From the NCBI RefSeq assembly GCF_058153355.1, contig NZ_CM177019.1: a stretch of 64,000 bases of DNA; one strand, given 5' to 3'. The translations under genes and the position numbers were made by a program. The stretch's first letter is position 1; the number at the start of each line of letters is the position of its first letter. The notes under the pieces are model-generated. The model had not been told where the DNA came from, searched no databases, and saw nothing but the letters and a program-made list of their open reading frames with translations. Below are positions 1 to 12,258 of this stretch, piece after piece.

Positions 1-610
1 TAGCTGTGAAGCAAATTAGTCCCAGCGTTTTGACATATCCTCTGGCGGAAATAAAGGTCAGTACTATTGCCCAGACTAACAAAGCCCACCAACCGCTAAA
101 GGGCAAAGGGTGATCGGTCGGTGTTATCGCTTCTAAATTATTCCCCGTCAGACGATTATCAATATCGCTTATTCCCTTTTGCAAGCCGCCAGCAAGGTCG
201 CCATTTTTAAATGCCGGAATAATACTGTTGCGAATAATTTTCCCGGACTGCGCATCCGTAATAACGCCTTCCAGTCCGTAACCGATTTCAATACGCACGG
301 TATGATCCTGCCAGGCGACTAACAGTAGAACGCCATCATCGCGGTCTTTATCACCCGGTTTCCAGCTATCGAATACCCGCGTAGCGTACTGCTCGATGGT
401 TTCATCGCCCGTTGTTTCAACCACTAACACGACCAGTTGTGCGTGGCTTTTTTGCATCAGCTCTTTAATCTGATTGGTCAACGTATTTACTTCATCGTTC
501 GTCAATTTGCCGGTTAAGTCATTCACATACCTGGGTGATTCAGGTACTGGAATTTGTATGGCAAACACAGATGAACAAAAGAAAGCCATAAGGAAGATAA
601 AATTTCGCAC
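1..610 (-). CDS. ygcG: TPM-domain protein (YgcG-like), partial; 3' end runs off the window edge
   Basis: Minus-strand frame open to position 1; GTG start at 610 preceded by GAGGAAG; N-terminus MRNFIFLMAFFCSSVFA is signal-peptide-like; not in ORF track because it has no stop in the window. Confidence 0.6.
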   Translation of the reverse strand, partial: MRNFIFLMAFFCSSVFAIQIPVPESPRYVNDLTGKLTNDEVNTLTNQIKELMQKSHAQLVVLVVETTGDETIEQYATRVFDSWKPGDKDRDDGVLLLVAWQDHTVRIEIGYGLEGVITDAQSGKIIRNSIIPAFKNGDLAGGLQKGISDIDNRLTGNNLEAITPTDHPLPFSGWWALLVWAIVLTFISARGYVKTLGLICFTA

Positions 611-623
611 AGGACTTCCTCGC

Positions 624-1226
624 TTAATGAGCATTAGCATTCTGGCTAAAATCTATTGTTGGGGTTTTACTCACAGCGGCGACATCATCCGGCAAATAAT
701 TTTTCTTCGGTGTGTAATCCATGACTTTTGCGGTTAACACTGCGGGGAATTTGCGGATAGTGACATTATATTGTTCGATGGCTTTAATATATCTTCCTCG
801 CGCAACGGCAATTCGATTTTCACTTCCTTCGAGCTGTACCATCAAATTTTGATAGAGTTCCTGGGCCTTTAGCTCAGGGTAACGTTCACTAATTATCGTT
901 AACTGACCGAGAGTGCGAGACACCTGCGCCTGAGCTTGTTGCCAGGTTTGTAATTTTTGTTCATCTCCCGGAGTTTGCTGAAGAGCACTACTGGCGCGAT
1001 TAGCCTGACTACGTGCCAATGTTACGGCTTCCAGTACCTCTTGTTCATGGCTGGAATAACCTTTAATACTGGCGACAAGATTAGGAATAAGATCGGCGCG
1101 ACGTTGATATTGATTTAATACCTCAGACCAGGAAGCGTTAACCTGCTCATCATAGGTTTGAATATCGTTATATCCACAGCCTGATAAATTGAAAATAAAT
1201 ATAATTACGATGAATATTCTGAGCAT
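624..1226 (-). CDS. LemA-family protein, probable lipoprotein
   Basis: 200 aa ORF with N-terminal hydrophobic segment ending LSGC (lipobox-like); sits 13 bp upstream of the TPM gene, a common LemA-TPM pairing. Confidence 0.7.
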   Translation of the reverse strand: MLRIFIVIIFIFNLSGCGYNDIQTYDEQVNASWSEVLNQYQRRADLIPNLVASIKGYSSHEQEVLEAVTLARSQANRASSALQQTPGDEQKLQTWQQAQAQVSRTLGQLTIISERYPELKAQELYQNLMVQLEGSENRIAVARGRYIKAIEQYNVTIRKFPAVLTAKVMDYTPKKNYLPDDVAAVSKTPTIDFSQNANAH

Positions 1227-1398
1227 GGTTAAATTCCTTTTAATTAATTTCTTAAAACATAATACGCCACTTCATTTTATTCTTTATGATCTAATCCACT
1301 TTTTGCCTTAAACCTGCCTGTAACAGAATGTTAATAAGACATGATTGTTGTGGCAGGATCTGCAATAATTAACAATTATCCACTTCACAGAGAATGCT

Positions 1399-2070
1399 AT
1401 GCAGTACCCGATTAACGAGATGTTCCAGACCCTGCAAGGTGAGGGTTACTTTACCGGCGTCCCCGCCATTTTTATTCGTTTACAGGGATGCCCGGTCGGC
1501 TGTGCCTGGTGCGACACCAAACACACCTGGGAAAAGCTTGAGGATCGGGAAGTCTCCCTTTTCAGCATTCTGGCGAAGACCAAAGAGAGTGATAAGTGGG
1601 GGGCGGCGAGCAGTGAAGATTTGCTGGCTGTCATTGGTCGTCAGGGATACACCGCGCGGCATGTGGTGATTACGGGTGGTGAGCCTTGCATTCATGATTT
1701 GCTGCCACTGACTGACCTGCTCGAAAAGAACGGTTTTAGCTGCCAGATCGAAACCAGCGGTACTCATGAAGTACGCTGCACGCCGAATACCTGGGTTACC
1801 GTATCGCCAAAGCTGAACATGCGCGGCGGCTATGAAGTGTTGTCACAGGCACTGGAGCGAGCCAACGAAATCAAGCATCCAGTGGGACGCGTACGTGATA
1901 TTGAAGCACTGGATGAACTATTGGCGACGCTGACCGATGATAAACCACGAGTCATTGCACTGCAGCCAATTAGCCAAAAGGATGATGCCACACGTTTGTG
2001 CATTGAAACTTGCATTGCGCGTAACTGGCGTTTGTCGATGCAAACACATAAATATTTAAATATTGCCTGA
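1399..2070 (+). CDS. queE: 7-carboxy-7-deazaguanine synthase QueE (radical SAM)
   Basis: 223 aa ORF; N-terminus MQYPINEMFQTLQGEGYFTGVPAIFIRLQGCPVGCAWCDTKHTW carries the cysteine motif. Confidence 0.9.
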   Translation: MQYPINEMFQTLQGEGYFTGVPAIFIRLQGCPVGCAWCDTKHTWEKLEDREVSLFSILAKTKESDKWGAASSEDLLAVIGRQGYTARHVVITGGEPCIHDLLPLTDLLEKNGFSCQIETSGTHEVRCTPNTWVTVSPKLNMRGGYEVLSQALERANEIKHPVGRVRDIEALDELLATLTDDKPRVIALQPISQKDDATRLCIETCIARNWRLSMQTHKYLNIA

Positions 2071-2353
2071 CAGGTAATGTGAGTAGAGGTTGTGACGATT
2101 AAGCCTCTACTCTTACATCAATCTGTAAATGCCCCATTTTCTCCTCTCTTTGGTCCGACTCCGCAATTTCGTATATTTTTCAATAGTGTTAATGTTTTGT
2201 CCAAGTAAAAATTACCAGACATTCGGAGGTTTTTAACTAACATTTATAGTGGGTAAATTGGTGGGATACGCTTAACCTTAAAAAATCAATATAAACAATA
2301 GGTTATGATTGGTGTTTGTCTTATCGGATGAACTAATTTAAATGGAGTACTAA

Positions 2354-2617
2354 ATGGCTACTTTAATGGAAAAAGATTCTCTCCTGAATGGCGTAAGTCA
2401 AAATATTGCATTTTTATCAAATGTATCAGAAATGATTTACAAGTCCCAGAATGAAGAATTACAAAAGGAGATATATGAATTGGTGAGTTATAGAGACTAT
2501 TTATATTCAACAGGCCATGAACTCGTTGATTTCAAGGAAGGAGTATTGCGATTTCAGCAAGTTAGAAAAAAATACATGCAGGATCTAAAAGCGCTAGGTT
2601 ATCCCGCAACCAATTGA
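2354..2617 (+). CDS. hypothetical small protein in an AT-rich intergenic islet
   Basis: 87 aa ORF in a markedly AT-rich segment (about 2100-2790); no recognisable motif. Confidence 0.3.
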   Translation: MATLMEKDSLLNGVSQNIAFLSNVSEMIYKSQNEELQKEIYELVSYRDYLYSTGHELVDFKEGVLRFQQVRKKYMQDLKALGYPATN

Positions 2618-2797
2618 TAAATATGTCTTTATATTAATTTTAGGATGTGGATAACCTGCTGAAATTTATATTAAAAATGAAATAAAAATATTAAATTCAT
2701 ATCATGCTTGCGTTTTGTTCTCGATAACGCGTAATTTTGTTGAATGCTTTCTCCTGTGAATGCAAAACCAGGCAGTTTCCCGCCCGGCCTTCCTCAC

Positions 2798-4282
2798 TTA
2801 CGCATTCGACCAGCTCTGGATCGAATCTTCATTCCCCAGCTCACCATGCATCACTTCATACGATTTTTTCAGGATCACATCAGTGTGTTTGGTTAGGTCT
2901 TTGAAAATGCCTTTATTCATCGCGTCGTAGCGTTTGGCGTTGCTCTCAACAGGCATAAAGATATCTTTCACGCGAACCATTTTGTCGACAGCCGTTGCGT
3001 AATCCGGGTATAGCCCCAGACCTACCGCCGTATTAATCGCTGCCCCCAGGCTTGCACAACCGTTAATGGCGTTACGTCGTGCCGGAAGGTTGAACACGTC
3101 GGCAAAAATTTGCATAAACAGATCGCTGTTCGAACCGCCGCCAGTAATGATCACATGTTTCGCAAAGTGATTCATTTCATGACACATATTGTCGTAATTG
3201 TTCTTCAGCGTCAGCGTCAGCGCCACGCTTTCCAGTATCGAACGATATATCCATGCGTAATCCATGCTGGAATCAAAGCCGATCATAATCCCGCGTTTGT
3301 ACGGTTCCCACGGATTGGTCAGCCAGTCCAGCACCGTCATCAGACCATTACAGCCAGGCGGCACACAACAAGCTTTTTTGTTGAGCAAATCTTCCGGTGA
3401 AAGATCCTGCGCCCTGGCATCCTGAATTAACGATTCGCCTAGCATGTCGCGCAGCCAACTCACCGTCCACATGCCTTTGCGAATACCGTAACCTTCATAC
3501 AGCAAGGTTTGCGGAATAGAAGACATAATCGGCCAGTACGCTACCGGATCTTTCGGCAGTACTTTGCCGTTCATCATCAACGCGATGTAAGTGCCAAGAG
3601 AAATTACCGCAGTTTCATCATCCAGTAACCCGGCTCCCAGTGCTTCTACCGGTTTATCACTGGTGGTACAAACAACCGGCAGCCCAGCCGGGAAATGTGT
3701 CGCCAGCGCGGCTTGTGGTGTGATATGCCCAAGAACAGTGCCCGGCATTTGCACATCAAAAAGCATCTGTTGGGGAATATTAAACTTCTCCATTACCGCG
3801 GTATCTTCGCTCCATGCCCAGGTCTTATAATCCACCGGCCACTGACCAAAATAGTTGGCGATATTGTCTTTAAACTCGCCGGTTAAACGGTGTGTCAGAT
3901 AACCTGAAAAAGAGGTGACATATGCCACATCAGGATTGGTGTGCTCGTAGGGACGTGTTACGCGTGCATCCTGCCAGCTAATCAACGGCGCAGCTGGCGT
4001 GCCATCGGCTTTCAATAACGCACGGCAGCAACGGATAGATCCCAGACCAATGCCGACAATATCTTCTTTATTCCCGGCAAACTGGCTCATCAAATCGTGA
4101 CCAGCAAAACATAATGATGCCCATAAATCATCGTCAGGATGTTCTGCGGTATCGGCATCTGGAGTGTGCATCGGTTGTAATAAGCCTTTGCCTTCGCAAA
4201 CCACGTTACCTTCCAGATCGTACATCACCACTTTTGTGCTCTGACTTCCGCCATCAATCCCTATGATGTATTTTTTCGACAT
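2798..4282 (-). CDS. ygcE: FGGY-family carbohydrate kinase
   Basis: 494 aa ORF; N-terminal IGIDGGSQSTK kinase signature. Confidence 0.85.
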   Translation of the reverse strand: MSKKYIIGIDGGSQSTKVVMYDLEGNVVCEGKGLLQPMHTPDADTAEHPDDDLWASLCFAGHDLMSQFAGNKEDIVGIGLGSIRCCRALLKADGTPAAPLISWQDARVTRPYEHTNPDVAYVTSFSGYLTHRLTGEFKDNIANYFGQWPVDYKTWAWSEDTAVMEKFNIPQQMLFDVQMPGTVLGHITPQAALATHFPAGLPVVCTTSDKPVEALGAGLLDDETAVISLGTYIALMMNGKVLPKDPVAYWPIMSSIPQTLLYEGYGIRKGMWTVSWLRDMLGESLIQDARAQDLSPEDLLNKKACCVPPGCNGLMTVLDWLTNPWEPYKRGIMIGFDSSMDYAWIYRSILESVALTLTLKNNYDNMCHEMNHFAKHVIITGGGSNSDLFMQIFADVFNLPARRNAINGCASLGAAINTAVGLGLYPDYATAVDKMVRVKDIFMPVESNAKRYDAMNKGIFKDLTKHTDVILKKSYEVMHGELGNEDSIQSWSNA

Positions 4283-4308
4283 GATTTTTCTCCTGTAATT
4301 TTCCTGGC

Positions 4309-5586
4309 TTACTTGCTGCTAGCCATTGCGGGGGCGCTATCAGCAGTACGAATTTTTTGGAACAGCAAAAAGGTAAAGACGATCACCATGGCAAGCGCCG
4401 CCATGCCCATCAGCCACATATTGCGGTAGGCTTCTGCCGCGGGCAGGGTGTCTTGCCAGTGGCCGATAATTGGGTAAACGAAGACATCCGGCAGAAATCC
4501 AATCACCGAACAAATACCTACCGTGGTGCCCATAATGTAAGACGGTGTTCTCGCTTCGCCGGGGCAGGCCCAGTACAGCCCGCGGGAGGCGTAGCAGGTG
4601 AATCCCAGTAGTAAAATCAGGCCAATCCCCATCGCGACCGATTGCGGGTTAGAGTTCGTGATGAGCAGGGCAGTTAACGCCAGCAGGCCGAGTACGGAAA
4701 GGATTTGGATCACGCGGGTAGGGGATTTCACTTTGCTGTAGGTGGTGATAATGCCACCAAGTGGGCCGCACAGTGCGCGGAAGATTTTGTTGATCACAAT
4801 CCCCATGTAGCTCGCCGCCACCAGCGACATGCCGTACATTTCGGTCAGATAGTTGGTGGAGTAACTCAGAATGGCGTAGATGGTGAAGACGCCAAAAATC
4901 ACCATGCTGCAGTACCATGTGGTGCTGATACGCAAAACGGCAAGGATGTCGCTAAGCTGGAATGACTGTTTTTCTTCGGTGTTGGTATTGCGCAGGTTGT
5001 TGTTATCGCTAACAAAAAACCAGCACAGAATCCCCAACAAGATGTAAACCACACTATAGATGATAATGACCGTTTTCAGGCTGGCGCTGTCATCCGGTGC
5101 AAAGCGAGAAAAGACCCACATGGTAAACACCGCCAGCGACATTACACCGACGCCGCGCAGCCCTTCCATCCAGCCCATAATTTTCCCCTGCTCGCTATGA
5201 TCGCCAAGCAACGATGCGGCTTTAATCGACACCGACCACAGCATTAAAATCGTCGTTATCGCAAAGGCGACCTGAATACAGAGCATTACCCACAGCGGTG
5301 GATACGTTGCCATTAACAGACCCAGCAATCCGGTAATGATCATCGCGGAAGTAATCATTTTGCGGTGTGAAAATTTATCGGCAATAACGCTGCTGGGGGC
5401 ATAAAGAATAATAGCCGCAATACCAAAGGTACTCATTATTAAACCTATCTCGGTATTGCTGAATCCCATAAATTTCGCCATGGGAATTTGATAAATATAA
5501 CGTAAATAAGCCAGGTCGAAACTAACGCCGCCGCTAAAACTAATTATCGCGAGGGTTATCCAACGGCGATATGAGTTGTGTTGCAT
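4309..5586 (-). CDS. yqcE: MFS transporter
   Basis: 425 aa ORF, strongly hydrophobic with multiple predicted TM segments. Confidence 0.8.
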   Translation of the reverse strand: MQHNSYRRWITLAIISFSGGVSFDLAYLRYIYQIPMAKFMGFSNTEIGLIMSTFGIAAIILYAPSSVIADKFSHRKMITSAMIITGLLGLLMATYPPLWVMLCIQVAFAITTILMLWSVSIKAASLLGDHSEQGKIMGWMEGLRGVGVMSLAVFTMWVFSRFAPDDSASLKTVIIIYSVVYILLGILCWFFVSDNNNLRNTNTEEKQSFQLSDILAVLRISTTWYCSMVIFGVFTIYAILSYSTNYLTEMYGMSLVAASYMGIVINKIFRALCGPLGGIITTYSKVKSPTRVIQILSVLGLLALTALLITNSNPQSVAMGIGLILLLGFTCYASRGLYWACPGEARTPSYIMGTTVGICSVIGFLPDVFVYPIIGHWQDTLPAAEAYRNMWLMGMAALAMVIVFTFLLFQKIRTADSAPAMASSK

Positions 5587-5764
5587 ATCGTATTCCCATT
5601 TGTAATAGACAAAAAAAAGAGAAAAGTAAGCCGCCCTTTCAGGTGGATTACTTTTCTCAGGTCTCTAGTAATTGCAGTAAGAAATAACATGGAAAGCAGT
5701 GGTGTTGTGTGAGAGTAATCACGCTTCTGCTTTTTAAAATTATTTGACAATTCGAATATCACAC

Positions 5765-5780
5765 TGTGATTACGATCACA
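5765..5780. promoter_or_regulatory. candidate CRP binding site in the yqcE/ygcW divergent region
   Basis: TGTGA-ttacga-TCACA, perfect match to both half-sites of the CRP consensus. Confidence 0.45.
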
Positions 5781-5832
5781 TTAGCGCTTATGCCCTTATG
5801 CTAAAAATTATCTCCAGTTACCAGAGATAATG

Positions 5833-5880
5833 AGAAAGGTAACTTCCCTCTCGCGGGGGAAGTTACCTTTCTTTTTTTTT
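5833..5880 (+). terminator. intrinsic terminator-like hairpin with T-tract, 25 nt upstream of the ygcW start codon (possible leader attenuator)
   Basis: ggtaacttccc-tctcgcgg-gggaagttacc stem-loop followed by tttcttttttttttg on the + strand. Confidence 0.5.
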
Positions 5881-5904
5881 GCCTTACGGAAATTGGAGCT
5901 AACT

Positions 5905-6690
5905 ATGTCAATCGAATCTCTCAATGCGTTCTCAATGGATTTTTTCTCCCTGAAAGGTAAAACCGCAATTGTTACCGGCGGGAATAGCGGTTTAGGCCAG
6001 GCATTTGCCATGGCACTCGCAAAAGCAGGCGCAAATATCTTTATTCCAAGTTTCGTTAAAGATAATGGCGAAACAAAGGAAATGATTGAAAAACAGGGTG
6101 TTGAGGTGGACTTCATGCAGGTGGATATCACCGCAGAAGGCGCGCCGCAGAAGATAATTACCGCCTGTTGTGAACGTTTCGGCACCGTCGATATTCTGGT
6201 TAACAATGCCGGTATATGTAAGCTGAATAAGGTGCTGGATTTCGGTCGTGCCGACTGGGACCCGATGATTGACGTGAACCTGACCGCCGCATTCGAGTTA
6301 AGCTATGAAGCGGCAAAAATTATGATCCCGCAGAAAAGCGGTAAAATCATTAATATCTGTTCATTATTCTCTTACTTAGGTGGACAATGGTCACCTGCAT
6401 ATTCTGCCACTAAACATGCTCTTGCCGGATTCACCAAAGCTTATTGTGATGAACTAGGTCAATATAATATTCAGGTAAATGGTATTGCCCCTGGCTATTA
6501 TGCAACAGATATCACCCTGGCGACACGCAGTAATCCAGAAACCAATCAGCGCGTTCTTGATCATATTCCGGCAAACCGTTGGGGCGATACTCAGGATTTA
6601 ATGGGCGCAGCCGTATTCCTCGCAAGTCCGGCTTCAAATTATGTTAACGGGCATTTATTAGTGGTCGATGGCGGTTATTTAGTGCGCTAA
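5905..6690 (+). CDS. ygcW: short-chain dehydrogenase/reductase (KduD-like)
   Basis: 261 aa from ATG 5905; TGGNSGLG Rossmann motif; the ORF-track start at 5830 is an upstream in-frame extension. Confidence 0.85.
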   Translation: MSIESLNAFSMDFFSLKGKTAIVTGGNSGLGQAFAMALAKAGANIFIPSFVKDNGETKEMIEKQGVEVDFMQVDITAEGAPQKIITACCERFGTVDILVNNAGICKLNKVLDFGRADWDPMIDVNLTAAFELSYEAAKIMIPQKSGKIINICSLFSYLGGQWSPAYSATKHALAGFTKAYCDELGQYNIQVNGIAPGYYATDITLATRSNPETNQRVLDHIPANRWGDTQDLMGAAVFLASPASNYVNGHLLVVDGGYLVR

Positions 6691-6759
6691 TCCATAACGG
6701 TGGTTTCTGATTTCTTTTATTAATGACTATTCCATTTTTATTATCAGGAAGGAATTACT

Positions 6760-8214
6760 ATGTCTTTATCTCGCGCAGCGATTGTCGACCAGCTAAAGGA
6801 AATTGTTGGTGCAGATCGCGTAATTACCGATGAAACGGTATTGAAGAAAAACAGTATTGATCGTTTTCGTAAATTTCCGGATATTCATGGTATTTATACT
6901 TTGCCTATTCCGGCAGCGGTCGTAAAACTCGGTTCCACAGAGCAAGTGTCCCGTGTGCTGAATTTTATGAATGCACACAAAATTAACGGCGTACCACGTA
7001 CCGGTGCTTCCGCTACCGAAGGCGGGCTGGAAACTGTTGTGGAAAACTCGGTGGTGCTCGATGGCTCTGCAATGAATCAAATCATTAATATTGATATAGA
7101 GAATATGCAGGCCACGGCGCAATGTGGCGTTCCGTTGGAAGTGCTGGAAAACGCGTTGCGTGAAAAAGGCTATACCACGGGGCATTCTCCGCAGTCAAAA
7201 CCGTTGGCGCAGATGGGTGGGTTGGTAGCTACCCGCAGCATCGGGCAGTTCTCCACACTCTACGGCGCAATCGAGGATATGGTCGTTGGCCTGGAAGCAG
7301 TACTGGTTGATGGCACCGTGACACGCATTAAAAACGTGCCACGACGCGCGGCGGGCCCGGACATTCGTCACATCATCATCGGCAACGAAGGTGCATTGTG
7401 CTATATCACTGAAATAACAGTGAAAATATTTAAATTCACTCCCGAAAACAACCTCTTTTATGGCTATATCCTGGAAGACATGAAGACCGGCTTCAACATC
7501 CTGCGTGAAATCATGGTGGAAGGATATCGTCCGTCGATCGCTCGTTTGTATGACGCTGAAGATGGCACCCAACACTTCACCCATTTTGCCGACGGAAAAT
7601 GCGTGCTGATCTTTATGGCTGAAGGTAACCCTCGCATTGCGAAGGCGACGGGCGAAGGGATTGCAGAAATCGTGGCACGTTACCCGCAATGCCAGCGCGT
7701 GGACAGTAAGCTGATCGAAACCTGGTTTAACAACCTGAACTGGGGACCGGATAAAGTGGCTGCCGAACGTGTGCAGATCCTCAAAACCGGCAACATGGGC
7801 TTTACCACCGAAGTGTCCGGCTGCTGGAGTTGCATACACGAAATCTACGAAAGCGTTATTAACCGTATTCGTACCGAGTTCGCGCACGCCGACGACATCA
7901 CCATGCTGGGCGGTCACTCCTCTCATAGCTATCAGAACGGCACCAACATGTACTTCGTCTACGACTACAACGTTGTTGACTGTAAGCCGGAAGAGGAAAT
8001 CGACAAATACCACAATCCGCTCAACAAAATCATCTGCGAAGAAACCATTCGCCTCGGCGGTTCGATGGTACACCATCACGGTATCGGTAAACATCGTGTT
8101 CACTGGAGCAAACTGGAACACGGCAGCGCGTGGACATTGCTGGAAGGGCTGAAAAAACAGTTCGATCCTAACGGTATTATGAATACGGGTACTATCTATC
8201 CGATTGAAAAATAA
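6760..8214 (+). CDS. ygcU: FAD-linked oxidoreductase
   Basis: 484 aa ORF; assignment from recalled similarity to K-12 YgcU. Confidence 0.8.
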   Translation: MSLSRAAIVDQLKEIVGADRVITDETVLKKNSIDRFRKFPDIHGIYTLPIPAAVVKLGSTEQVSRVLNFMNAHKINGVPRTGASATEGGLETVVENSVVLDGSAMNQIINIDIENMQATAQCGVPLEVLENALREKGYTTGHSPQSKPLAQMGGLVATRSIGQFSTLYGAIEDMVVGLEAVLVDGTVTRIKNVPRRAAGPDIRHIIIGNEGALCYITEITVKIFKFTPENNLFYGYILEDMKTGFNILREIMVEGYRPSIARLYDAEDGTQHFTHFADGKCVLIFMAEGNPRIAKATGEGIAEIVARYPQCQRVDSKLIETWFNNLNWGPDKVAAERVQILKTGNMGFTTEVSGCWSCIHEIYESVINRIRTEFAHADDITMLGGHSSHSYQNGTNMYFVYDYNVVDCKPEEEIDKYHNPLNKIICEETIRLGGSMVHHHGIGKHRVHWSKLEHGSAWTLLEGLKKQFDPNGIMNTGTIYPIEK

Positions 8215-8307
8215 TGTGTCAGGCAGCGTTTCGCGATGACGGGGCGTTGTCTTTTCGGCTTCTCAACCGGGAAGCCGTTCTTATTACCGGACAATGAAGG
8301 GGTAAAG

Positions 8308-9645
8308 ATGAACACTTCACCGGTGCGAATGGATGATTTACCGCTTAACCGTTTTCACTGTCGAATTGCTGCGCTGACTTTCGGCGCACACCTGACCGAC
8401 GGTTATGTTCTCGGCGTCATTGGTTACGCCATAATTCAGCTTACTCCAGCCATGCAACTGACGCCGTTTATGGCGGGAATGATTGGTGGCTCGGCGCTAC
8501 TTGGCCTGTTTATCGGCAGCCTGGTTTTGGGGTGGATCTCCGACCATATCGGGCGGCAAAAAATCTTCACCTTCAGCTTTATGCTGATTACGCTCGCCTC
8601 GTTCCTGCAATTTTTTGCCACCACGCCAGAGCATCTTATTGGACTACGCATTTTGATCGGCATTGGTCTGGGAGGCGACTATTCAGTAGGTCACACCTTG
8701 CTGGCTGAATTTTCCCCGCGCCGCCATCGCGGTATTTTGCTAGGCGCTTTCAGCGTGGTGTGGACCGTAGGCTATGTGTTGGCAAGTCTTGCCGGACATC
8801 ACTTTATTAGCGAAAGCCCCGAAGCCTGGCGATGGTTACTTGCATCGGCGGCATTTCCTGCCCTGTTGATTACGTTGTTACGTTGGGGAACGCCAGAATC
8901 GCCACGCTGGCTACTGCGCCAGGGGCGTTTTGCAGAAGCTCACGCTATCGTGCATCGCTATTTTGGTCCCCATGTTTTACTGGGCGATGAAGTGGCAACG
9001 GCGACCCATAAACACATCAAAACCTTGTTCTCTTCGCGCTACTGGCGGCGCACGGCGTTTAACAGCGTCTTCTTTGTCTGCCTCGTAATCCCATGGTTTG
9101 TGATTTATACCTGGCTGCCAACTATCGCCCAGACTATTGGACTGGAAGATGCGCTGACTGCCAGCCTGATGCTTAATGCGTTGTTAATTGTGGGCGCGCT
9201 GCTGGGATTATTTCTGACGCACCTGCTGGCACATCGCAAATTTTTACTTGGCAGTTTTTTGTTGCTGGCGGCAACGCTGGTAGTGATGGCCTGTTTGCCT
9301 TCTGCCTGTTCATTAACGCTGCTGCTTTTTGTTCTCTTCAGTACCACCATTTCGGCAGTCAGTAATCTGGTGGGCATTTTGCCTGCGGAAAGTTTTCCTA
9401 CTGACATTCGCTCGCTGGGTGTCGGTTTTGCCACTGCCATGAGTCGGTTGGGGGCGGCGGTAAGTACTGGCCTGCTGCCGTGGGTGCTGGCGCAGTGGGG
9501 AATGCAAGTCACCTTATTGCTCCTGGCGGCAGTGTTGTTGGTTGGTTTTGTTGTGACCTGGCTATGGGCGCCAGAAACCAAAGCACTCCCGCTGGTGGCG
9601 GCGGGAAATGTAGGAGGTACTAATGAACATTCTGTTAGCATTTAA
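8308..9645 (+). CDS. ygcS: MFS sugar/metabolite transporter
   Basis: Hydrophobic ORF; likely start ATG 8308 (MNTSPVRMDDL), ORF-track start 8236 is an upstream extension. Confidence 0.8.
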   Translation: MNTSPVRMDDLPLNRFHCRIAALTFGAHLTDGYVLGVIGYAIIQLTPAMQLTPFMAGMIGGSALLGLFIGSLVLGWISDHIGRQKIFTFSFMLITLASFLQFFATTPEHLIGLRILIGIGLGGDYSVGHTLLAEFSPRRHRGILLGAFSVVWTVGYVLASLAGHHFISESPEAWRWLLASAAFPALLITLLRWGTPESPRWLLRQGRFAEAHAIVHRYFGPHVLLGDEVATATHKHIKTLFSSRYWRRTAFNSVFFVCLVIPWFVIYTWLPTIAQTIGLEDALTASLMLNALLIVGALLGLFLTHLLAHRKFLLGSFLLLAATLVVMACLPSACSLTLLLFVLFSTTISAVSNLVGILPAESFPTDIRSLGVGFATAMSRLGAAVSTGLLPWVLAQWGMQVTLLLLAAVLLVGFVVTWLWAPETKALPLVAAGNVGGTNEHSVSI

Positions 9646-10402
9646 AGCCGAACCAGATGCCGGAATGCTGGCAGAAAAAGAGTGGCAGGTGGCGGCTCAG
9701 GGTAATCGCGGACCGGATGTTTCGCTGCTGCGAAGTTTACTCGGTGCTGATGAACAGGCCGCTGCCGCGCTTCTGTTAGCGCAGAGAAAAAACGGTACGC
9801 CGATGTCTTTAACCGCGTTGAGCATGGGGGATGAACGGGCGTTGCACTGGCTGCGCTATCTTATGGCGTTGGGGTTTGAGAAGGCAGTATTGCTGGAGAC
9901 GGCGGCAGATCTGCGCTTTGCACCGGAATTTGTCGCCCGGCATATTGCCGAATGGCAGTGCCAGAATCCGCTGGATCTGATAATTACCGGCTGCCAGAGC
10001 AGCGAAGGGCAGAACGGGCAAACGCCATTTTTGCTGGCGGAAATGCTGACCTGGCCCTGTTTTACCCAGGTGGAGCGTTTTACTCTCGACGCACCGTTTA
10101 TCTCGCTCGAACAGCGTACTGAACATGGATTACGCTGTTGTCGGGTTCGCTTGCCTGCGGTGATTGCCGTGCGCCAGTGTGGCGAGGTGGCCTTGCCAGT
10201 ACCGGGAATGCGCCAGCGAATGGCTGCGGGGAAAGCTGAAATTATCCGCAAAACTGTTACTGCTGAATCGTCTGCGATGCAGTGCCGGCAACTGGAAAGG
10301 CCAGAGCAACGACGCGGTGCAACGCTTCTTGATGGACAAACGGTAGCAGAAAAAGCGCAAAAGCTATGGCAGGACTATTTACGCCAAAGGATGCAGCCAT
10401 GA
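9623..10402 (+). CDS. ygcR: electron-transfer flavoprotein beta-subunit-like protein (FixA-like)
   Basis: 259 aa ORF; stop overlaps next start (ATGA). Confidence 0.8.
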   Translation: MNILLAFKAEPDAGMLAEKEWQVAAQGNRGPDVSLLRSLLGADEQAAAALLLAQRKNGTPMSLTALSMGDERALHWLRYLMALGFEKAVLLETAADLRFAPEFVARHIAEWQCQNPLDLIITGCQSSEGQNGQTPFLLAEMLTWPCFTQVERFTLDAPFISLEQRTEHGLRCCRVRLPAVIAVRQCGEVALPVPGMRQRMAAGKAEIIRKTVTAESSAMQCRQLERPEQRRGATLLDGQTVAEKAQKLWQDYLRQRMQP

Positions 10403-11259
10403 ATATCGCCATTGTGACAATAAATCAGGAACATGCCGCAATAGCGGGCTGGCTGGCGGAGCAGGATTTCAGCGGCAGCACATTAACGCACTGGCAAATC
10501 GAGCCGCAGCCGATGGTCGCGGAACAGGTGCTGGATGCGCTGGTAGAACAGTGGCAGCGAACGCCTGCGGACGTTGTTCTCTTTCCGCCGGGAACGTTTG
10601 GCGATGAACTGGCTACCCGCCTGTCCTGGCGTTTACATGGTGCCAGTATATGCCAGGTGACTTCATTAAATATTCCAACCGGAAGCGTACGCAAATCCCA
10701 CTGGGGAAATGCGCTAACGGCGACGCTGCAAACAGAAAAACGCCCGCTATGCTTCTCCCTGGCGCGTCAGGCGGGAGCAGATAAAAACGCCTCGTTGCCC
10801 CCGGGTATGCAGCAACTGAACATTGTCCCAGGTGCGCTTCCCGGCTGGCTGGTTAGCATAGTGAACCTGAAAAATGTTACCCGTGACCCATTAGCTGAGG
10901 CCAGACGGGTGCTGGTGGTGGGGCAGGGCGGAGAGGCAGATAACCAGGAAATCGCTATGCTGGCAGAAAAGCTGGGAGCCGAAGTGGGCTACAGTCGGGC
11001 GCGAGTAATGAACGGTGGCGTTGATGCCGAAAAAGTGATTGGTATTTCCGGACATCTGCTGGCACCTGAGGTGTGTATTGTTGTTGGCGCTTCCGGCGCA
11101 GCAGCGTTAATGGCGGGCGTCCGCAATAGCAAGTTTGTGGTGGCGATTAATCATGACGCCAGCGCGGCGGTATTTTCACAGGCAGATGTTGGCGTGGTTG
11201 ATGACTGGAAAGCGGTGCTGGAGGCACTGGTGACAACCATTCACGCAGATTGCCAATAA
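10399..11259 (+). CDS. ygcQ: electron-transfer flavoprotein alpha-subunit-like protein (FixB-like)
   Basis: Start ATG 10399 (MNIAIVT) overlapping the ygcR stop. Confidence 0.8.
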   Translation: MNIAIVTINQEHAAIAGWLAEQDFSGSTLTHWQIEPQPMVAEQVLDALVEQWQRTPADVVLFPPGTFGDELATRLSWRLHGASICQVTSLNIPTGSVRKSHWGNALTATLQTEKRPLCFSLARQAGADKNASLPPGMQQLNIVPGALPGWLVSIVNLKNVTRDPLAEARRVLVVGQGGEADNQEIAMLAEKLGAEVGYSRARVMNGGVDAEKVIGISGHLLAPEVCIVVGASGAAALMAGVRNSKFVVAINHDASAAVFSQADVGVVDDWKAVLEALVTTIHADCQ

Positions 11260-11261
11260 CG

Positions 11262-11390
11262 TGCTGCCGGATGATCCTGCCTACGGTTCTGGGCTGGGGA
11301 CTTGTAAGCCTGATAAGACGCGTCAAGCGTCGTATCAGGCGCTGAATGTCGGATGTGGCGTGCAGCCTACAAATCACACAAATTCAATTC
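11262..11390. repeat. REP/BIME-like palindromic units
   Basis: gcctgataagacgcgtcaagcgtcgtatcaggcgc and gccggatg/ggcctac-type palindromes. Confidence 0.55.
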
Positions 11391-11405
11391 GTTACGATTA
11401 TCTCG

Positions 11406-11981
11406 TCAAAGCAATTTTTTCGCTAACGTCCAGACCCCGGTATTCGTGGTAGAAAGCGCCACTACACCGGCGTTAATCGCATTACGCGCATCTTCTTCAT
11501 CGCACACCAGCCCGCCAGCAATCAGCGGCTGGTGGATTTTCTCCGTTACCCAGCCCAGTACTTTAGGCATACAGCCTGGCAGAATTTCAATACAATCCGG
11601 GTTCGATTGCGCAACCTGTTTATCAATGTTGTGAAATGAAATCGAATCAACAATAAACAAGCGATGAATACAGAAAAAGCCTTCCGCTCTCGCCGCTTTT
11701 AGCATTGACGCTTTGGTACTGATAATGCCGTCCGCCTCGGTCACCAGTTTCAGAAACTGAATTACTACTTCTTTATTTGACGCGCCTTCCAGCAAATCGA
11801 CATGAATAAAAGCATATTTTCCGGCGTTCTTAATCTTTTTGACGATATGACTGATGGTGCAAATATTGCCGTATAACACGGAAATAAACTGGCATTCAGA
11901 ATCGATTGCCAACTGCAGGCTGGCATTATCTTTAACGGCAGCAATCACCGGATTCTGGCGGAGCAGGTGTAAGAGGGGCAT
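11406..11981 (-). CDS. ygcP: GlpP-family glycerol-3-phosphate-responsive antiterminator-like protein
   Basis: 191 aa ORF; assignment from recalled similarity to K-12 YgcP. Confidence 0.8.
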   Translation of the reverse strand: MPLLHLLRQNPVIAAVKDNASLQLAIDSECQFISVLYGNICTISHIVKKIKNAGKYAFIHVDLLEGASNKEVVIQFLKLVTEADGIISTKASMLKAARAEGFFCIHRLFIVDSISFHNIDKQVAQSNPDCIEILPGCMPKVLGWVTEKIHQPLIAGGLVCDEEDARNAINAGVVALSTTNTGVWTLAKKLL

Positions 11982-11997
11982 AAATTATCCTTATTAT

Positions 11998-12258
11998 TTA
12001 TCCAAAGCGGTAGGTGATGCCGAATCCGGAAGGCGGATAGCGCCACTGTTGTAGCGTTTTTTCATCGCACAGCAAACGGCAGGTGCCGCACTCCAGACAA
12101 TTACGATAATCAACGTGCAAATCACCTTCCGGTGTGAGCGAAAAAAGACCAGCCGGACAAGCGTTAATCAACCGTTCTGCCGTCTGGCGCTCAACGGAGT
12201 CAGCCGGAACAATATGTGGCGCATCAGCAGCGCGCCAGAGATTACGGGCTACAGACAT
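11998..12258 (-). CDS. ygcO: ferredoxin-like protein (FixX-like)
   Basis: Cys motif CLECGTCRLLCDEK; likely start MSVARNL. Confidence 0.75.
   Translation of the reverse strand: MSVARNLWRAADAPHIVPADSVERQTAERLINACPAGLFSLTPEGDLHVDYRNCLECGTCRLLCDEKTLQQWRYPPSGFGITYRFG

What the first reader, a model, noticed from the sequence alone, without database searches (positions are those of the whole stretch)
1..1226. LemA-TPM gene pair upstream of queE
A LemA-family lipoprotein gene (624-1226) is followed 13 bp later by a TPM-domain gene with a signal peptide and a GTG start. I do not recall a LemA gene at this position in K-12, so the pair is worth checking as a possible envelope-associated accessory module.
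Basis: partly seen in the sequence, partly recalled or inferred. Interest (0 to 1): 0.25.

Follow-up and report, generated by a model that had tools for sequence, protein, structure and literature searches.

The report
Ancestral LemA–TPM envelope operon beside queE
This is an ordinary, already annotated two-gene operon (a LemA lipoprotein plus a membrane-anchored TPM-domain protein) that about a quarter of E. coli genomes carry next to queE; K-12 keeps only a stump of lemA, the small gene yqcG, and a very different TPM gene, ygcG.

Summary
On the minus strand, lemA (624-1226; Pfam LemA, E 2.6e-48; lipobox LSGC) is followed after a 13-nt spacer containing GAGGA by a GTG-started TPM-domain gene (610 to <1; E 1.7e-40). 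The window edge cuts that gene at codon 203 of about 224.

K-12 has no lemA here. It has the 46-codon yqcG plus ygcG, a TPM protein only 43% identical to the window's.

The pair is not an inserted island:
- Klebsiella has queE/lemA/TPM/eno at the same site, and E. albertii has lemA and TPM1 beside queE.
- LemA followed by TPM is conserved in 72 of 80 proteobacterial species loci, and in Thermotoga and Bacillota.
- Of 5,426 complete E. coli genomes, 1,449 carry the LemA form (O157:H7 among them) and 3,924 the K-12 form.

K-12's yqcG aligns to the lemA leader and codons 1-21 with the lipobox cysteine lost, so it is a lemA relic.

Both window genes are under purifying selection (dN/dS about 0.1 and 0.2).

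Function is inferred only: a periplasm-facing, stress-regulated membrane-maintenance pair.

Verdict: known gene families, already annotated, low interest. The yqcG origin and the locus polymorphism are the only mildly new points.

The parts
1..610 (-). 5' 203 codons of a TPM-domain membrane protein gene ('TPM1'), GTG start at 610-608. The window edge cuts it; orthologues are 224 aa. Predicted layout: signal peptide, periplasmic TPM domain (aa 29-152), then transmembrane helices.
   Evidence: Pfam PF04536 E 1.7e-40. 96% aa identity to the strain 2013C-4282 orthologue and 91% to the O157:H7 orthologue. PDB relatives 7TBR, BA41 (5ANP) and 2KW7 for the O157 orthologue. Hydropathy segments at 3-23 and 169-193. 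dN/dS about 0.2.
611..623 (-). 13-nt intercistronic spacer GCGAGGAAGTCCT with a Shine-Dalgarno-like GAGGA 6 nt before the GTG, as expected for an operon junction.
   Evidence: Read directly from the sequence. K-12 has the same 13-nt spacing between yqcG and ygcG.
624..1226 (-). lemA: a 200-aa LemA-family lipoprotein. Lipobox LSGC with Cys17 and Gly at +2; helical-bundle domain aa 22-178.
1227..1398 (.). Divergent lemA/queE intergenic region holding both promoters. AAGGA lies 8 nt upstream of the lemA ATG. A 2-codon mini-ORF (ATGTTTTAA) here is homologous to the start of K-12 yqcG.
   Evidence: Alignment to K-12: identical over the roughly 93 nt next to queE, about 85% overall. In K-12 this region binds sigma-S RNA polymerase (PMC4447067 and PMC5493296) and PhoP (PMC4974570). 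The sigma-70 consensus scan was no better than chance.
1309..1325 (-). PhoP-box-like direct repeat TGTTACAGGCAGGTTTA (2 mismatches to consensus), identical in K-12. A hint only.
   Evidence: Window-wide count was 19 against 12.2 expected, so the site is not significant on its own. It lies in the K-12 fragment X1 that PhoP-P shifted.
1164..1226 (-). lemA codons 1-21 (signal peptide and lipobox). This is the stretch still recognisable in K-12 as the body of yqcG, and it marks the left edge of the segment that differs between haplotypes.
   Evidence: blastn: 85% over 209 nt, ending near window 1192. Global alignment extends homology to the YND codons (41 of 58 nt). Nine-sequence alignment A3.
1399..2070 (+). 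queE (7-carboxy-7-deazaguanine synthase). Conserved flanking gene, included for context only.
   Evidence: dN is about 0 against K-12.

Best explanation
Window 1-1226 holds the promoter-proximal part of an ancient, widely conserved lemA-TPM operon at its ancestral site between queE and eno.

Shown:
- lemA encodes a lipoprotein-type LemA helical bundle.
- The next gene, coupled through a 13-nt spacer with a Shine-Dalgarno-like GAGGA, encodes a protein with a signal peptide, a periplasmic TPM domain and C-terminal transmembrane helices.
- Both genes evolve under purifying selection.
- In E. coli the interval from lemA codon ~21 to the last ~24 codons of the final TPM gene exists as very divergent haplotypes:
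  (i) lemA + three TPM genes (O157:H7, and the window's nearest relative);
  (ii) lemA + TPM1 + a 120-aa ORF;
  (iii) the K-12 form, where lemA is reduced to a 5' relic read as the small protein YqcG, followed by the divergent TPM gene ygcG.

Inferred mechanism:
- The two proteins act together on the periplasmic face of the envelope. The TPM protein is anchored in the inner membrane. LemA is lipid-anchored and, by the E. coli +2 rule (Gly at +2), probably sorted to the outer membrane.
- They form a stress-induced module that helps assemble, repair or stabilise membrane or membrane-protein complexes, rather than acting as a metabolic enzyme.
- Expression is probably driven from the shared queE-proximal region, which in K-12 binds sigma-S polymerase and PhoP and drives the envelope-stress-named yqcG.

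The biochemical activity is unknown.
For: Identity:
- Pfam LemA 164 bits and TPM 138 bits.
- PDB 2ETD at E 7e-33. 7TBR, BA41 (5ANP) and 2KW7 at E 1e-19 to 3e-22 for the full-length O157 orthologue of TPM1, 91% identical.
- Lipobox, spacer, start codon and transmembrane segments.

Conserved pairing:
- A TPM ORF lies downstream on the same strand within 1.5 kb in 72 of 80 LemA loci from different proteobacterial species. About 40 loci have a second TPM ORF roughly 1 kb further on.
- The pair is directly adjacent in Pseudomonas, Thermotoga (the 2ETD protein itself), Neobacillus and Thermincola.

Ancestral site:
- Klebsiella has queE / lemA (83% aa identity) / 296-aa TPM / eno.
- E. albertii aligns over window 1-2070 at 88.9%.

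Polymorphism:
- 1,449, 3,924 and 1,102 of 5,426 genomes carry the LemA form, the K-12 form and the four-gene form respectively.
- YgcG is only 43% identical to TPM1 and to TPM3.

yqcG relic.

Selection: dN/dS 0.09-0.14 for lemA and 0.17-0.24 for TPM1.

Regulation, by homology of the promoter region:
- sigma-S ChIP-seq and SELEX peaks.
- PhoP gel shifts, and the effect of deleting yqcG on queE.

Functional analogies from the literature:
- MamQ, a LemA-family protein, is needed for magnetosome membrane formation (PMC4902198 and PMC3905215).
- TPM proteins TLP18.3 and Psb32 act in photosystem II repair, and YdjH is a partner of PspA; a chaperone-like role has been proposed (PMC11237479; bioRxiv 2024.10.28.620569).
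- lemA and a TPM gene are both up-regulated in an envelope-stressed Flavobacterium sppA mutant (PMC13236525).
Against: - No experiment bears on the E. coli proteins. The function is inferred from gene context and distant homologues.
- MamQ and Psb32 equivalog models are far below their cut-offs (90.6 against 250 bits; 35 against 160 bits), so those functions cannot be transferred.
- The consensus promoter scan found nothing above chance upstream of lemA, and the PhoP-like site has 2 mismatches.
- TPM1 orthologues lack the Gly-rich C-terminal tail that every full-length partner carries. Similarity to the Klebsiella protein continues past the TPM1 stop codon. RefSeq marks TPM1 as 'missing C-terminus' in two strains. 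The window's TPM gene may therefore be a shortened, partly disabled copy.
- Some purified TPM domains show weak phosphatase or ATPase activity (papers cited), so an enzymatic role is not excluded.
- Outer-membrane sorting of LemA is only a rule-of-thumb prediction.
Confidence: 0.75

Rival explanations
1. One reading: a horizontally acquired accessory envelope module inserted next to queE in this strain, absent from the ancestral K-12-like locus.
For: - K-12 lacks lemA, and only 27% of complete E. coli genomes have it.
- GC content is 41-48%, slightly below the flanking genes at about 51-54%.
- The haplotypes are extremely divergent: TPM1 dS reaches 0.7 between E. coli strains, and YgcG is 43% identical to TPM1. 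This suggests some of the alleles were imported by recombination.
Against: - Klebsiella carries lemA-TPM in the same queE-eno slot, and E. albertii has lemA and TPM1 beside queE. LemA proteins 92-95% identical are named in E. marmotae and E. albertii.
- K-12 retains the lemA leader and codons 1-21 as a decayed relic. That is only explicable if lemA was there first.
- No integrase, IS element or other mobility gene is annotated in the interval in the LemA-form strains examined.
Confidence: 0.08
2. The TPM protein is a true periplasmic phosphatase or nucleotidase, and LemA is its regulator or substrate-presenting partner. On this view the module is enzymatic rather than a chaperone or scaffold.
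For: - The Pfam family is named 'TPM_phosphatase'.
- BA41, the PDB relative at E 3e-20, was reported to have ATPase/ADPase activity, and BA42 and TLP18.3 to have phosphatase activity (papers cited).
- Several TPM structures bind metals.
Against: [quoted passage not shown]
- The metal sites differ between structures.
- From general knowledge, the periplasm has no obvious ATP pool.
- The catalytic residues are not defined, so they could not be checked here.
Confidence: 0.12
3. The pair in this lineage is a decaying remnant with no current function, on the same path that reduced lemA to yqcG in K-12.
For: - TPM1 is C-terminally truncated relative to the family and is flagged as a pseudogene in two strains.
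- In O157:H7 the lemA ATG is mutated to ACG.
- The window versus 2013C-4282 TPM1 pair gives dN/dS 0.80, though from very few changes.
- The locus is clearly prone to loss.
Against: - Both reading frames are intact in the window, with good ribosome-binding sites.
- dN/dS is 0.09-0.14 for lemA and 0.17-0.24 for TPM1 over deeper comparisons.
- The 224-aa form of TPM1 is conserved in length across alleles with dS 0.7.
Confidence: 0.05

Closest known systems
RefSeq-annotated 'LemA family protein' / 'TPM domain-containing protein' genes of E. coli O157:H7 and about 1,450 other complete E. coli genomes (for example WP_000944222.1 in strain 2013C-4282)
   Same: Same genes at the same locus. LemA is 99.5% aa identical to the 2013C-4282 protein and 96.5% to O157:H7. 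TPM1 is 96% and 91% identical respectively. The 13-nt spacer is the same.
   Different: The window's allele is unusual: only one complete genome is at least 98.9% identical over 1-1400. The start is GTG instead of ATG for TPM1. The lemA ATG is intact, whereas O157:H7 has ACG.
E. coli K-12 yqcG-ygcG (b4682-b2778)
   Same: Same chromosomal slot between queE and eno, same orientation, same 13-nt spacing. The promoter-proximal region is homologous. ygcG is also a signal peptide + TPM + transmembrane protein.
   Different: lemA is reduced to a relic (leader plus codons 1-21, lipobox Cys changed to Phe) that is read as the 46-aa YqcG. YgcG is only 43% identical to TPM1 and, unlike TPM1, keeps the Gly-rich C-terminal tail.
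Thermotoga maritima LemA TM0961 (PDB 2ETD) and its downstream TPM gene
   Different: Thermotoga LemA is anchored by an N-terminal transmembrane helix rather than a lipobox. Its TPM partner has one transmembrane helix and the Gly-rich tail ...SSGGGGASRGW.
MamQ (the magnetosome LemA-family protein)
   Same: Shares the LemA domain; the NCBIfam MamQ model hits at E 9e-26. It is described as the only LemA-family member tied to a cellular process, magnetosome membrane formation (PMC4902198).
   Different: The score of 90.6 bits is far below the 250-bit equivalog cut-off. There is no magnetosome gene context. MamQ is anchored by a transmembrane helix and has a specific insert found only in magnetotactic bacteria.
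BA41/BA42 (Bizionia argentinensis), TLP18.3/Psb32 and B. subtilis YdjH TPM-domain proteins
   Same: Same TPM fold family. Of these, BA41 matches best, at E 3e-20. All are extracytoplasmic or lumenal domains associated with membranes.
   Different: The Psb32 equivalog is not met (35 against 160 bits). YdjH sits in a PspA operon, not a LemA operon. The reported enzymatic activities are not established for the enterobacterial proteins.

Membership tests
LemA family (Pfam PF04011) | Profile HMM match above the curated gathering score over the whole domain | tested here: met
   164.1 bits against a cut-off of 26.2; profile positions 1-149 of 149.
LemA family (Pfam PF04011) | Helical-bundle fold of the solved member 2ETD, and the conserved motifs RRADLxPNL and ENRIxVAR | tested here: met
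LemA family (Pfam PF04011) | N-terminal membrane anchor with the helical domain outside the cytoplasm | tested here: met
   Lipobox LSGC at residues 14-17 after a hydrophobic segment. L14, G16 and C17 are at least 90% conserved in proteobacterial homologues. Monoderm and Thermotoga homologues have a transmembrane helix instead. Actual lipidation and localisation cannot be tested here.
TPM domain family (Pfam PF04536) | Profile HMM match above the gathering score | tested here: met
   138.3 bits against 22.1; profile positions 1-124 of 125. PDB relatives 7TBR, 5ANP and 2KW7 for the O157 orthologue.
TPM domain family (Pfam PF04536) | Phosphatase or ATPase activity, as implied by the family name | not testable with these tools
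   No agreed catalytic residues. The literature reports no consensus on function.
YgcG-type full-length LemA partners (signal peptide + TPM + transmembrane segment(s) + Gly-rich tail ending ...GGGGSSGGGGASGRW) | Conserved Gly-rich C-terminal tail | tested here: not met
   The tail is present in YgcG, O157 TPM2 and TPM3, and in the Klebsiella, Pseudomonas, Brenneria, Thermotoga, Neobacillus and Thermincola partners. It is absent from the 224-aa TPM1 orthologues. Similarity to the Klebsiella protein runs past the TPM1 stop codon. The window's own copy is cut at codon 203, so this is inferred from orthologues 91-96% identical.
Conserved lemA-TPM operon | TPM gene immediately downstream of lemA on the same strand, recurring across distant lineages | tested here: met
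   13-nt spacer in the window. 72 of 80 species loci. Also Klebsiella, Pseudomonas, Thermotoga, Neobacillus and Thermincola. Brenneria is an exception, with a divergent arrangement.
   The K-12 derivative RP437 has yqcG (46 aa, no Pfam or NCBIfam hit) and ygcG (43% identical to TPM1). It has no LemA-family CDS.
MamQ equivalog (NCBIfam NF040966) | Score at or above the curated equivalog cut-off | tested here: not met
   90.6 bits against 250.
Psb32 photosystem II repair protein (NCBIfam NF047379) | Score at or above the curated equivalog cut-off | tested here: not met
   35 bits against 160 for O157 TPM1.
Known anti-phage defence systems (considered because a CRISPR locus is adjacent) | Match to any PADLOC-DB protein model | tested here: not met
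   No hit for LemA, TPM1, TPM2 or TPM3. The only hit was a sub-threshold DrmB match for YgcG, E 0.0075.
Genomic island / mobile element | Mobility genes or a lineage-specific insertion site | tested here: not met
   No integrase, transposase or other mobility gene is annotated in the interval in the LemA-form strains examined. Klebsiella has the pair in the same queE-eno slot, and E. albertii has lemA and TPM1 beside queE. att-type repeats were not searched for.

The most novel reading that the evidence does not exclude
Three linked readings remain open.

1. The queE-eno interval is an old multi-allelic polymorphism of Escherichia. K-12's stress-induced small protein YqcG is a new ORF assembled from the lemA leader and a decayed signal peptide.
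2. The haplotypes differ in the DNA 130-600 bp upstream of queE, where PhoP binds in K-12 and where deleting yqcG de-represses queE. Strains with the LemA haplotype (O157:H7 among them) may therefore differ from K-12 in the PhoQ- and antimicrobial-peptide-triggered, QueE-mediated block of cell division.
3. LemA-TPM is itself an ancient extracytoplasmic membrane-maintenance system, conserved from Thermotoga to Proteobacteria and not characterised in any organism. It possibly spans the periplasm, from an outer-membrane LemA to an inner-membrane TPM protein.
Probability: 0.3. Interest if true: 0.45.

Novelty: already known. Interest (0 to 1): 0.22.

Why it matters
As a finding it mostly closes a question: the pair is real, belongs to two known families and is already annotated in over a thousand E. 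coli genomes. It is not a new island.

Three modest points remain useful:
- K-12, the reference for E. coli envelope biology, lacks a lemA gene that roughly a quarter of the species, including O157:H7, and neighbouring genera retain. K-12-based screens therefore cannot say what LemA does.
- The K-12 small protein YqcG, named a 'cell envelope stress response protein', is explained here as a lemA relic. That implies the stress-responsive promoter originally served lemA-TPM.
- LemA followed by TPM is one of the more widely conserved bacterial gene pairs with no assigned function. A LemA-haplotype E. coli strain would be a tractable organism in which to find it.

Tried and rejected
- PADLOC scan, run because the CRISPR2 locus is adjacent: nothing.
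- Rfam scan of window 1-3000 at E <= 1: nothing.
- Sigma-70 promoter and terminator consensus scan of window 1-1500: counts at chance level, and no convincing lemA promoter called.
- PhoP-box pattern search: one 2-mismatch site conserved with K-12, but not significant by count.
- Attempt to extend yqcG/lemA homology beyond lemA codon ~21, or to the lemA 3' end, with a gap-tolerant global alignment. Only short, scattered blocks resulted, and I rejected them as spurious.
- Attempt to explain K-12 ygcG as a simple deletion fusion of TPM1 and TPM3. Rejected because YgcG is about 43% identical to both throughout. Only the last ~24 codons and the intergenic DNA toward eno are shared at the DNA level.
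- Literature searches for LemA with TPM, for ygcG, for yqcG, and for LemA with O157. They yielded no functional study of the E. coli genes.
- The papers I recalled as describing YqcG (Hemm et al., ids tried from memory) could not be retrieved.
- Antisense ORFs 474-737(+) and 957-1118(+) lie inside the two real genes. I did not pursue them.
Full report
OBSERVATION

The ORF list and the raw sequence show a 200-codon ORF at 624-1226 on the minus strand. It is a full-length match to Pfam LemA (PF04011, E 2.6e-48, 164 bits against a cut-off of 26.2). Its N-terminus, MLRIFIVIIFIFNLSGCGYN, carries a canonical lipobox (L-S-G-C, Cys17).

Its TAA stop (626-624) is followed by the 13-nt spacer GCGAGGAAGTCCT and then GTG at 610-608. 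From there the frame stays open to the window edge, 203 codons. It matches Pfam TPM (PF04536, E 1.7e-40). The product has a signal-peptide-like N-terminus (…SSVFA/IQ) and a hydrophobic segment at 169-193.

Orthologues are 224 aa, so the window cuts off the last ~21 codons and everything between this gene and eno. In O157:H7 and strain W2-5 the start codon at the same position is ATG, and GAGGA lies 6 nt upstream. Both facts support the GTG start. The pair is transcribed divergently from queE (1399-2070, +) across 172 bp.

COMPARISON WITH K-12 AND OTHER E. COLI

Megablast of window 1-1400 against 5,426 complete E. coli genomes found at least 80% coverage in 1,449 of them. The best hit is only 98.9% identical (strain 2013C-4282). 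In the remaining genomes only window 1192-1400 aligns, at about 85%.

The annotated loci differ as follows:
- The K-12 derivative RP437 has eno / ygcG (TPM, 290 aa) / yqcG (46 aa, 'cell envelope stress response protein') / queE.
- O157:H7 and 2013C-4282 have eno / TPM (304 aa) / TPM (382 aa) / 233-bp gap / TPM1 (224 aa) / LemA / queE.
- Strain W2-5 has LemA, TPM1 and a 120-aa hypothetical protein.

Counting each form among the 5,426 genomes gives 3,924 with the K-12 form, 1,449 with the LemA form, and 1,102 with the full four-gene form.

YgcG is only about 43% identical to TPM1 and about 43% to TPM3. K-12 therefore does not have 'the same two genes', but it does have a TPM gene at this place. 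DNA homology between the haplotypes resumes only in the last ~24 codons of the final TPM gene and in the spacer toward eno. That stretch encodes the shared tail GGFSGGGGSSGGGGASGRW.

yqcG IS A lemA RELIC

blastn of the gene-oriented regions and a nine-sequence alignment show the following:
- The K-12 and window sequences are identical over the ~93 nt next to queE, then about 75-85% identical through the lemA ribosome-binding site and into lemA.
- The ATG of K-12 yqcG corresponds to a two-codon mini-ORF (ATGTTTTAA) in the lemA leader.
- K-12 has a 1-nt deletion just after the position of the lemA ATG. This puts the upstream ATG in frame with the old lemA frame, so YqcG …KIIFIF… corresponds to LemA …VIIFIF….
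- A gap-tolerant alignment extends the homology to the codons for G-Y-N-D (41 of 58 nt). The lipobox cysteine codon TGT has become TTT.
- yqcG-type alleles without the 1-nt deletion keep the lemA-homologous ATG in frame. RefSeq flags them as 'frameshifted'.
- Beyond lemA codon ~21 no credible homology remains.

I found no statement of this origin in the searchable literature. The original YqcG papers could not be opened, so I do not claim priority.

WHICH FORM IS OLDER

Klebsiella quasipneumoniae has queE / LemA (196 aa, 83% identical) / a 296-aa TPM protein with the Gly-rich tail / eno at the same site. E. albertii aligns with window 1-2070 at 88.9%. LemA proteins 92-95% identical are named in E. 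marmotae and E. albertii. No mobility gene is annotated in the interval, and GC content is only mildly low at 41-48%.

Together with the relic in K-12, this makes the LemA form ancestral and the K-12 form derived. The very high divergence between alleles (TPM1 dS 0.7 between E. coli strains; 43% identity to YgcG) indicates that old or imported alleles have been exchanged by recombination at this site.

The window's own lineage is unusual. Its flanking ygc genes are at most 98.0% identical to any complete E. coli genome and 90-95% identical to most.

A CONSERVED MODULE

I scanned one genome per species with a LemA alignment, which returned 80 loci, mostly beta-, gamma- and alphaproteobacteria with 45-53% identity. 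A TPM HMM built here was then run on their six-frame ORFs. The results were:
- 72 loci have a TPM ORF downstream on the same strand within 1.5 kb, usually less than 150 nt from the LemA domain;
- 2 have it upstream;
- 1 has it farther away;
- 3 contigs end too soon to tell;
- 2 have none;
- about 40 have a second, weaker TPM hit about 1 kb further on.

Outside the Proteobacteria, the Thermotoga LemA whose structure is 2ETD is followed immediately by a TPM gene. So are LemA genes in Neobacillus and Thermincola. In Thermincola the pair sits next to NfeD and flotillin genes.

All the full-length partners examined share one architecture: an N-terminal signal, a TPM domain, one to three hydrophobic segments, and a Gly-rich tail ending …SSGGGGAS(R)GW or a close variant. 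Proteobacterial LemA has a lipobox, whereas monoderm and Thermotoga LemA has an N-terminal transmembrane helix.

E. coli TPM1 lacks the tail. Its similarity to the Klebsiella protein runs past the stop codon, so it is a shortened copy. Even so, dN/dS is 0.09-0.14 for lemA and 0.17-0.24 for TPM1 in deeper comparisons, which indicates that both are maintained by selection.

HOW IT MOST LIKELY WORKS (INFERRED)

Both globular domains are predicted to face the periplasm. The TPM protein would be held in the inner membrane. LemA would be lipid-anchored and, with Gly at +2, probably sent to the outer membrane; this rests on the textbook Lol rule and was not tested.

The literature offers no consensus biochemical function for either family. 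The relevant points are:
- MamQ is described as the only LemA-family protein tied to a process, magnetosome membrane formation.
- TPM proteins act in photosystem II repair (TLP18.3, Psb32) or partner with PspA (YdjH). A chaperone-like assembly role has been proposed against a phosphatase role.
- BA41, a close PDB relative of TPM1, was reported to be an ATPase/ADPase.

The promoter-proximal DNA shared with K-12 binds sigma-S polymerase in ChIP-seq and SELEX experiments and binds PhoP-P. Deleting yqcG raises queE expression. A PhoP-box-like repeat is conserved at window 1309-1325.

I therefore favour a stress-induced, periplasm-facing membrane-maintenance pair. I consider an enzymatic role for the TPM domain possible but less likely. 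The equivalog models for MamQ and Psb32 are clearly not met, so this is a working resemblance, not membership.

NEGATIVE RESULTS

- PADLOC gave no hit for the LemA-haplotype proteins.
- Rfam gave no hit.
- The promoter consensus scan was at chance level.

VERDICT

This is a real but ordinary feature: two known families in a known, widely conserved arrangement, already annotated in RefSeq for about 27% of complete E. coli genomes. The mildly new points are the three-haplotype structure of the queE-eno interval, the origin of yqcG as a lemA relic, and the possible consequence for PhoP control of queE.

Noticed in passing
window 2071-2797 (queE-ygcE spacer), ORF 2354-2617(+): K-12 and many other strains have a CRISPR array between queE and ygcE. 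The window instead has an AT-rich stretch (32-35% GC) with an 87-aa ORF that has no Pfam, NCBIfam or PADLOC hit. I read this stretch by eye but ran no repeat or CRISPR search on it. Only 8 of 5,426 complete E. coli genomes have anything similar (79% identity over 63% of the stretch). In one of them the ORF sits right after a short CRISPR array.
   Followed up: partly
L003 (E. coli O157:H7 DEC4E) about 5224-5244; alignment A3 columns about 236-240: In O157:H7 the lemA start codon is ACG instead of ATG. RefSeq therefore annotates a 206-aa protein from an upstream non-canonical start whose first residue translates as Ile. LemA may be poorly translated in this lineage.
   Followed up: no
L001 3928-4068 (K-12 yqcG); L005 3929-4070; L092 1331-1472: yqcG alleles that RefSeq flags as 'frameshifted' lack K-12's 1-nt deletion and keep the lemA-homologous ATG in frame. 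On that evidence the K-12 reading frame of YqcG is the derived one.
   Followed up: partly
L003 3703-3935 (233-bp gap after TPM1 in O157:H7), outside the window: tblastn similarity of the Klebsiella 296-aa TPM protein to TPM1 continues about 23 codons past the TPM1 stop. The 'gap' therefore looks like the decayed 3' end of a once longer TPM1 gene. RefSeq flags TPM1 as 'missing C-terminus' in two strains.
   Followed up: partly
window 2798-12000 (ygcE-ygcU region): This core region is at most 98.0% identical to any of 5,426 complete E. coli genomes and 90-95% identical to 4,831 of them. The window seems to come from a lineage at the edge of, or outside, mainstream E. coli.
   Followed up: no
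L095 3501-7312 (Thermincola contig): The LemA-TPM pair is followed directly by NfeD and flotillin (FloA) genes. That is another membrane-organisation context for the pair.
   Followed up: no
L004 3299-3661 (E. coli W2-5), outside the window: A third haplotype replaces TPM2 and TPM3 with a 120-aa hydrophobic hypothetical protein that has no family hit. The counts suggest about 350 genomes carry a short LemA form.
   Followed up: no
C-termini of TPM partners in L001, L003, L006, L008, L011, L093-L095: A strikingly conserved C-terminal motif, GG(F)xGGGGSSGGGGA(S/G)(R)GW, follows the last transmembrane helix in LemA-associated TPM proteins from Thermotoga to E. coli. I know of no assigned function for it.
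   Followed up: no
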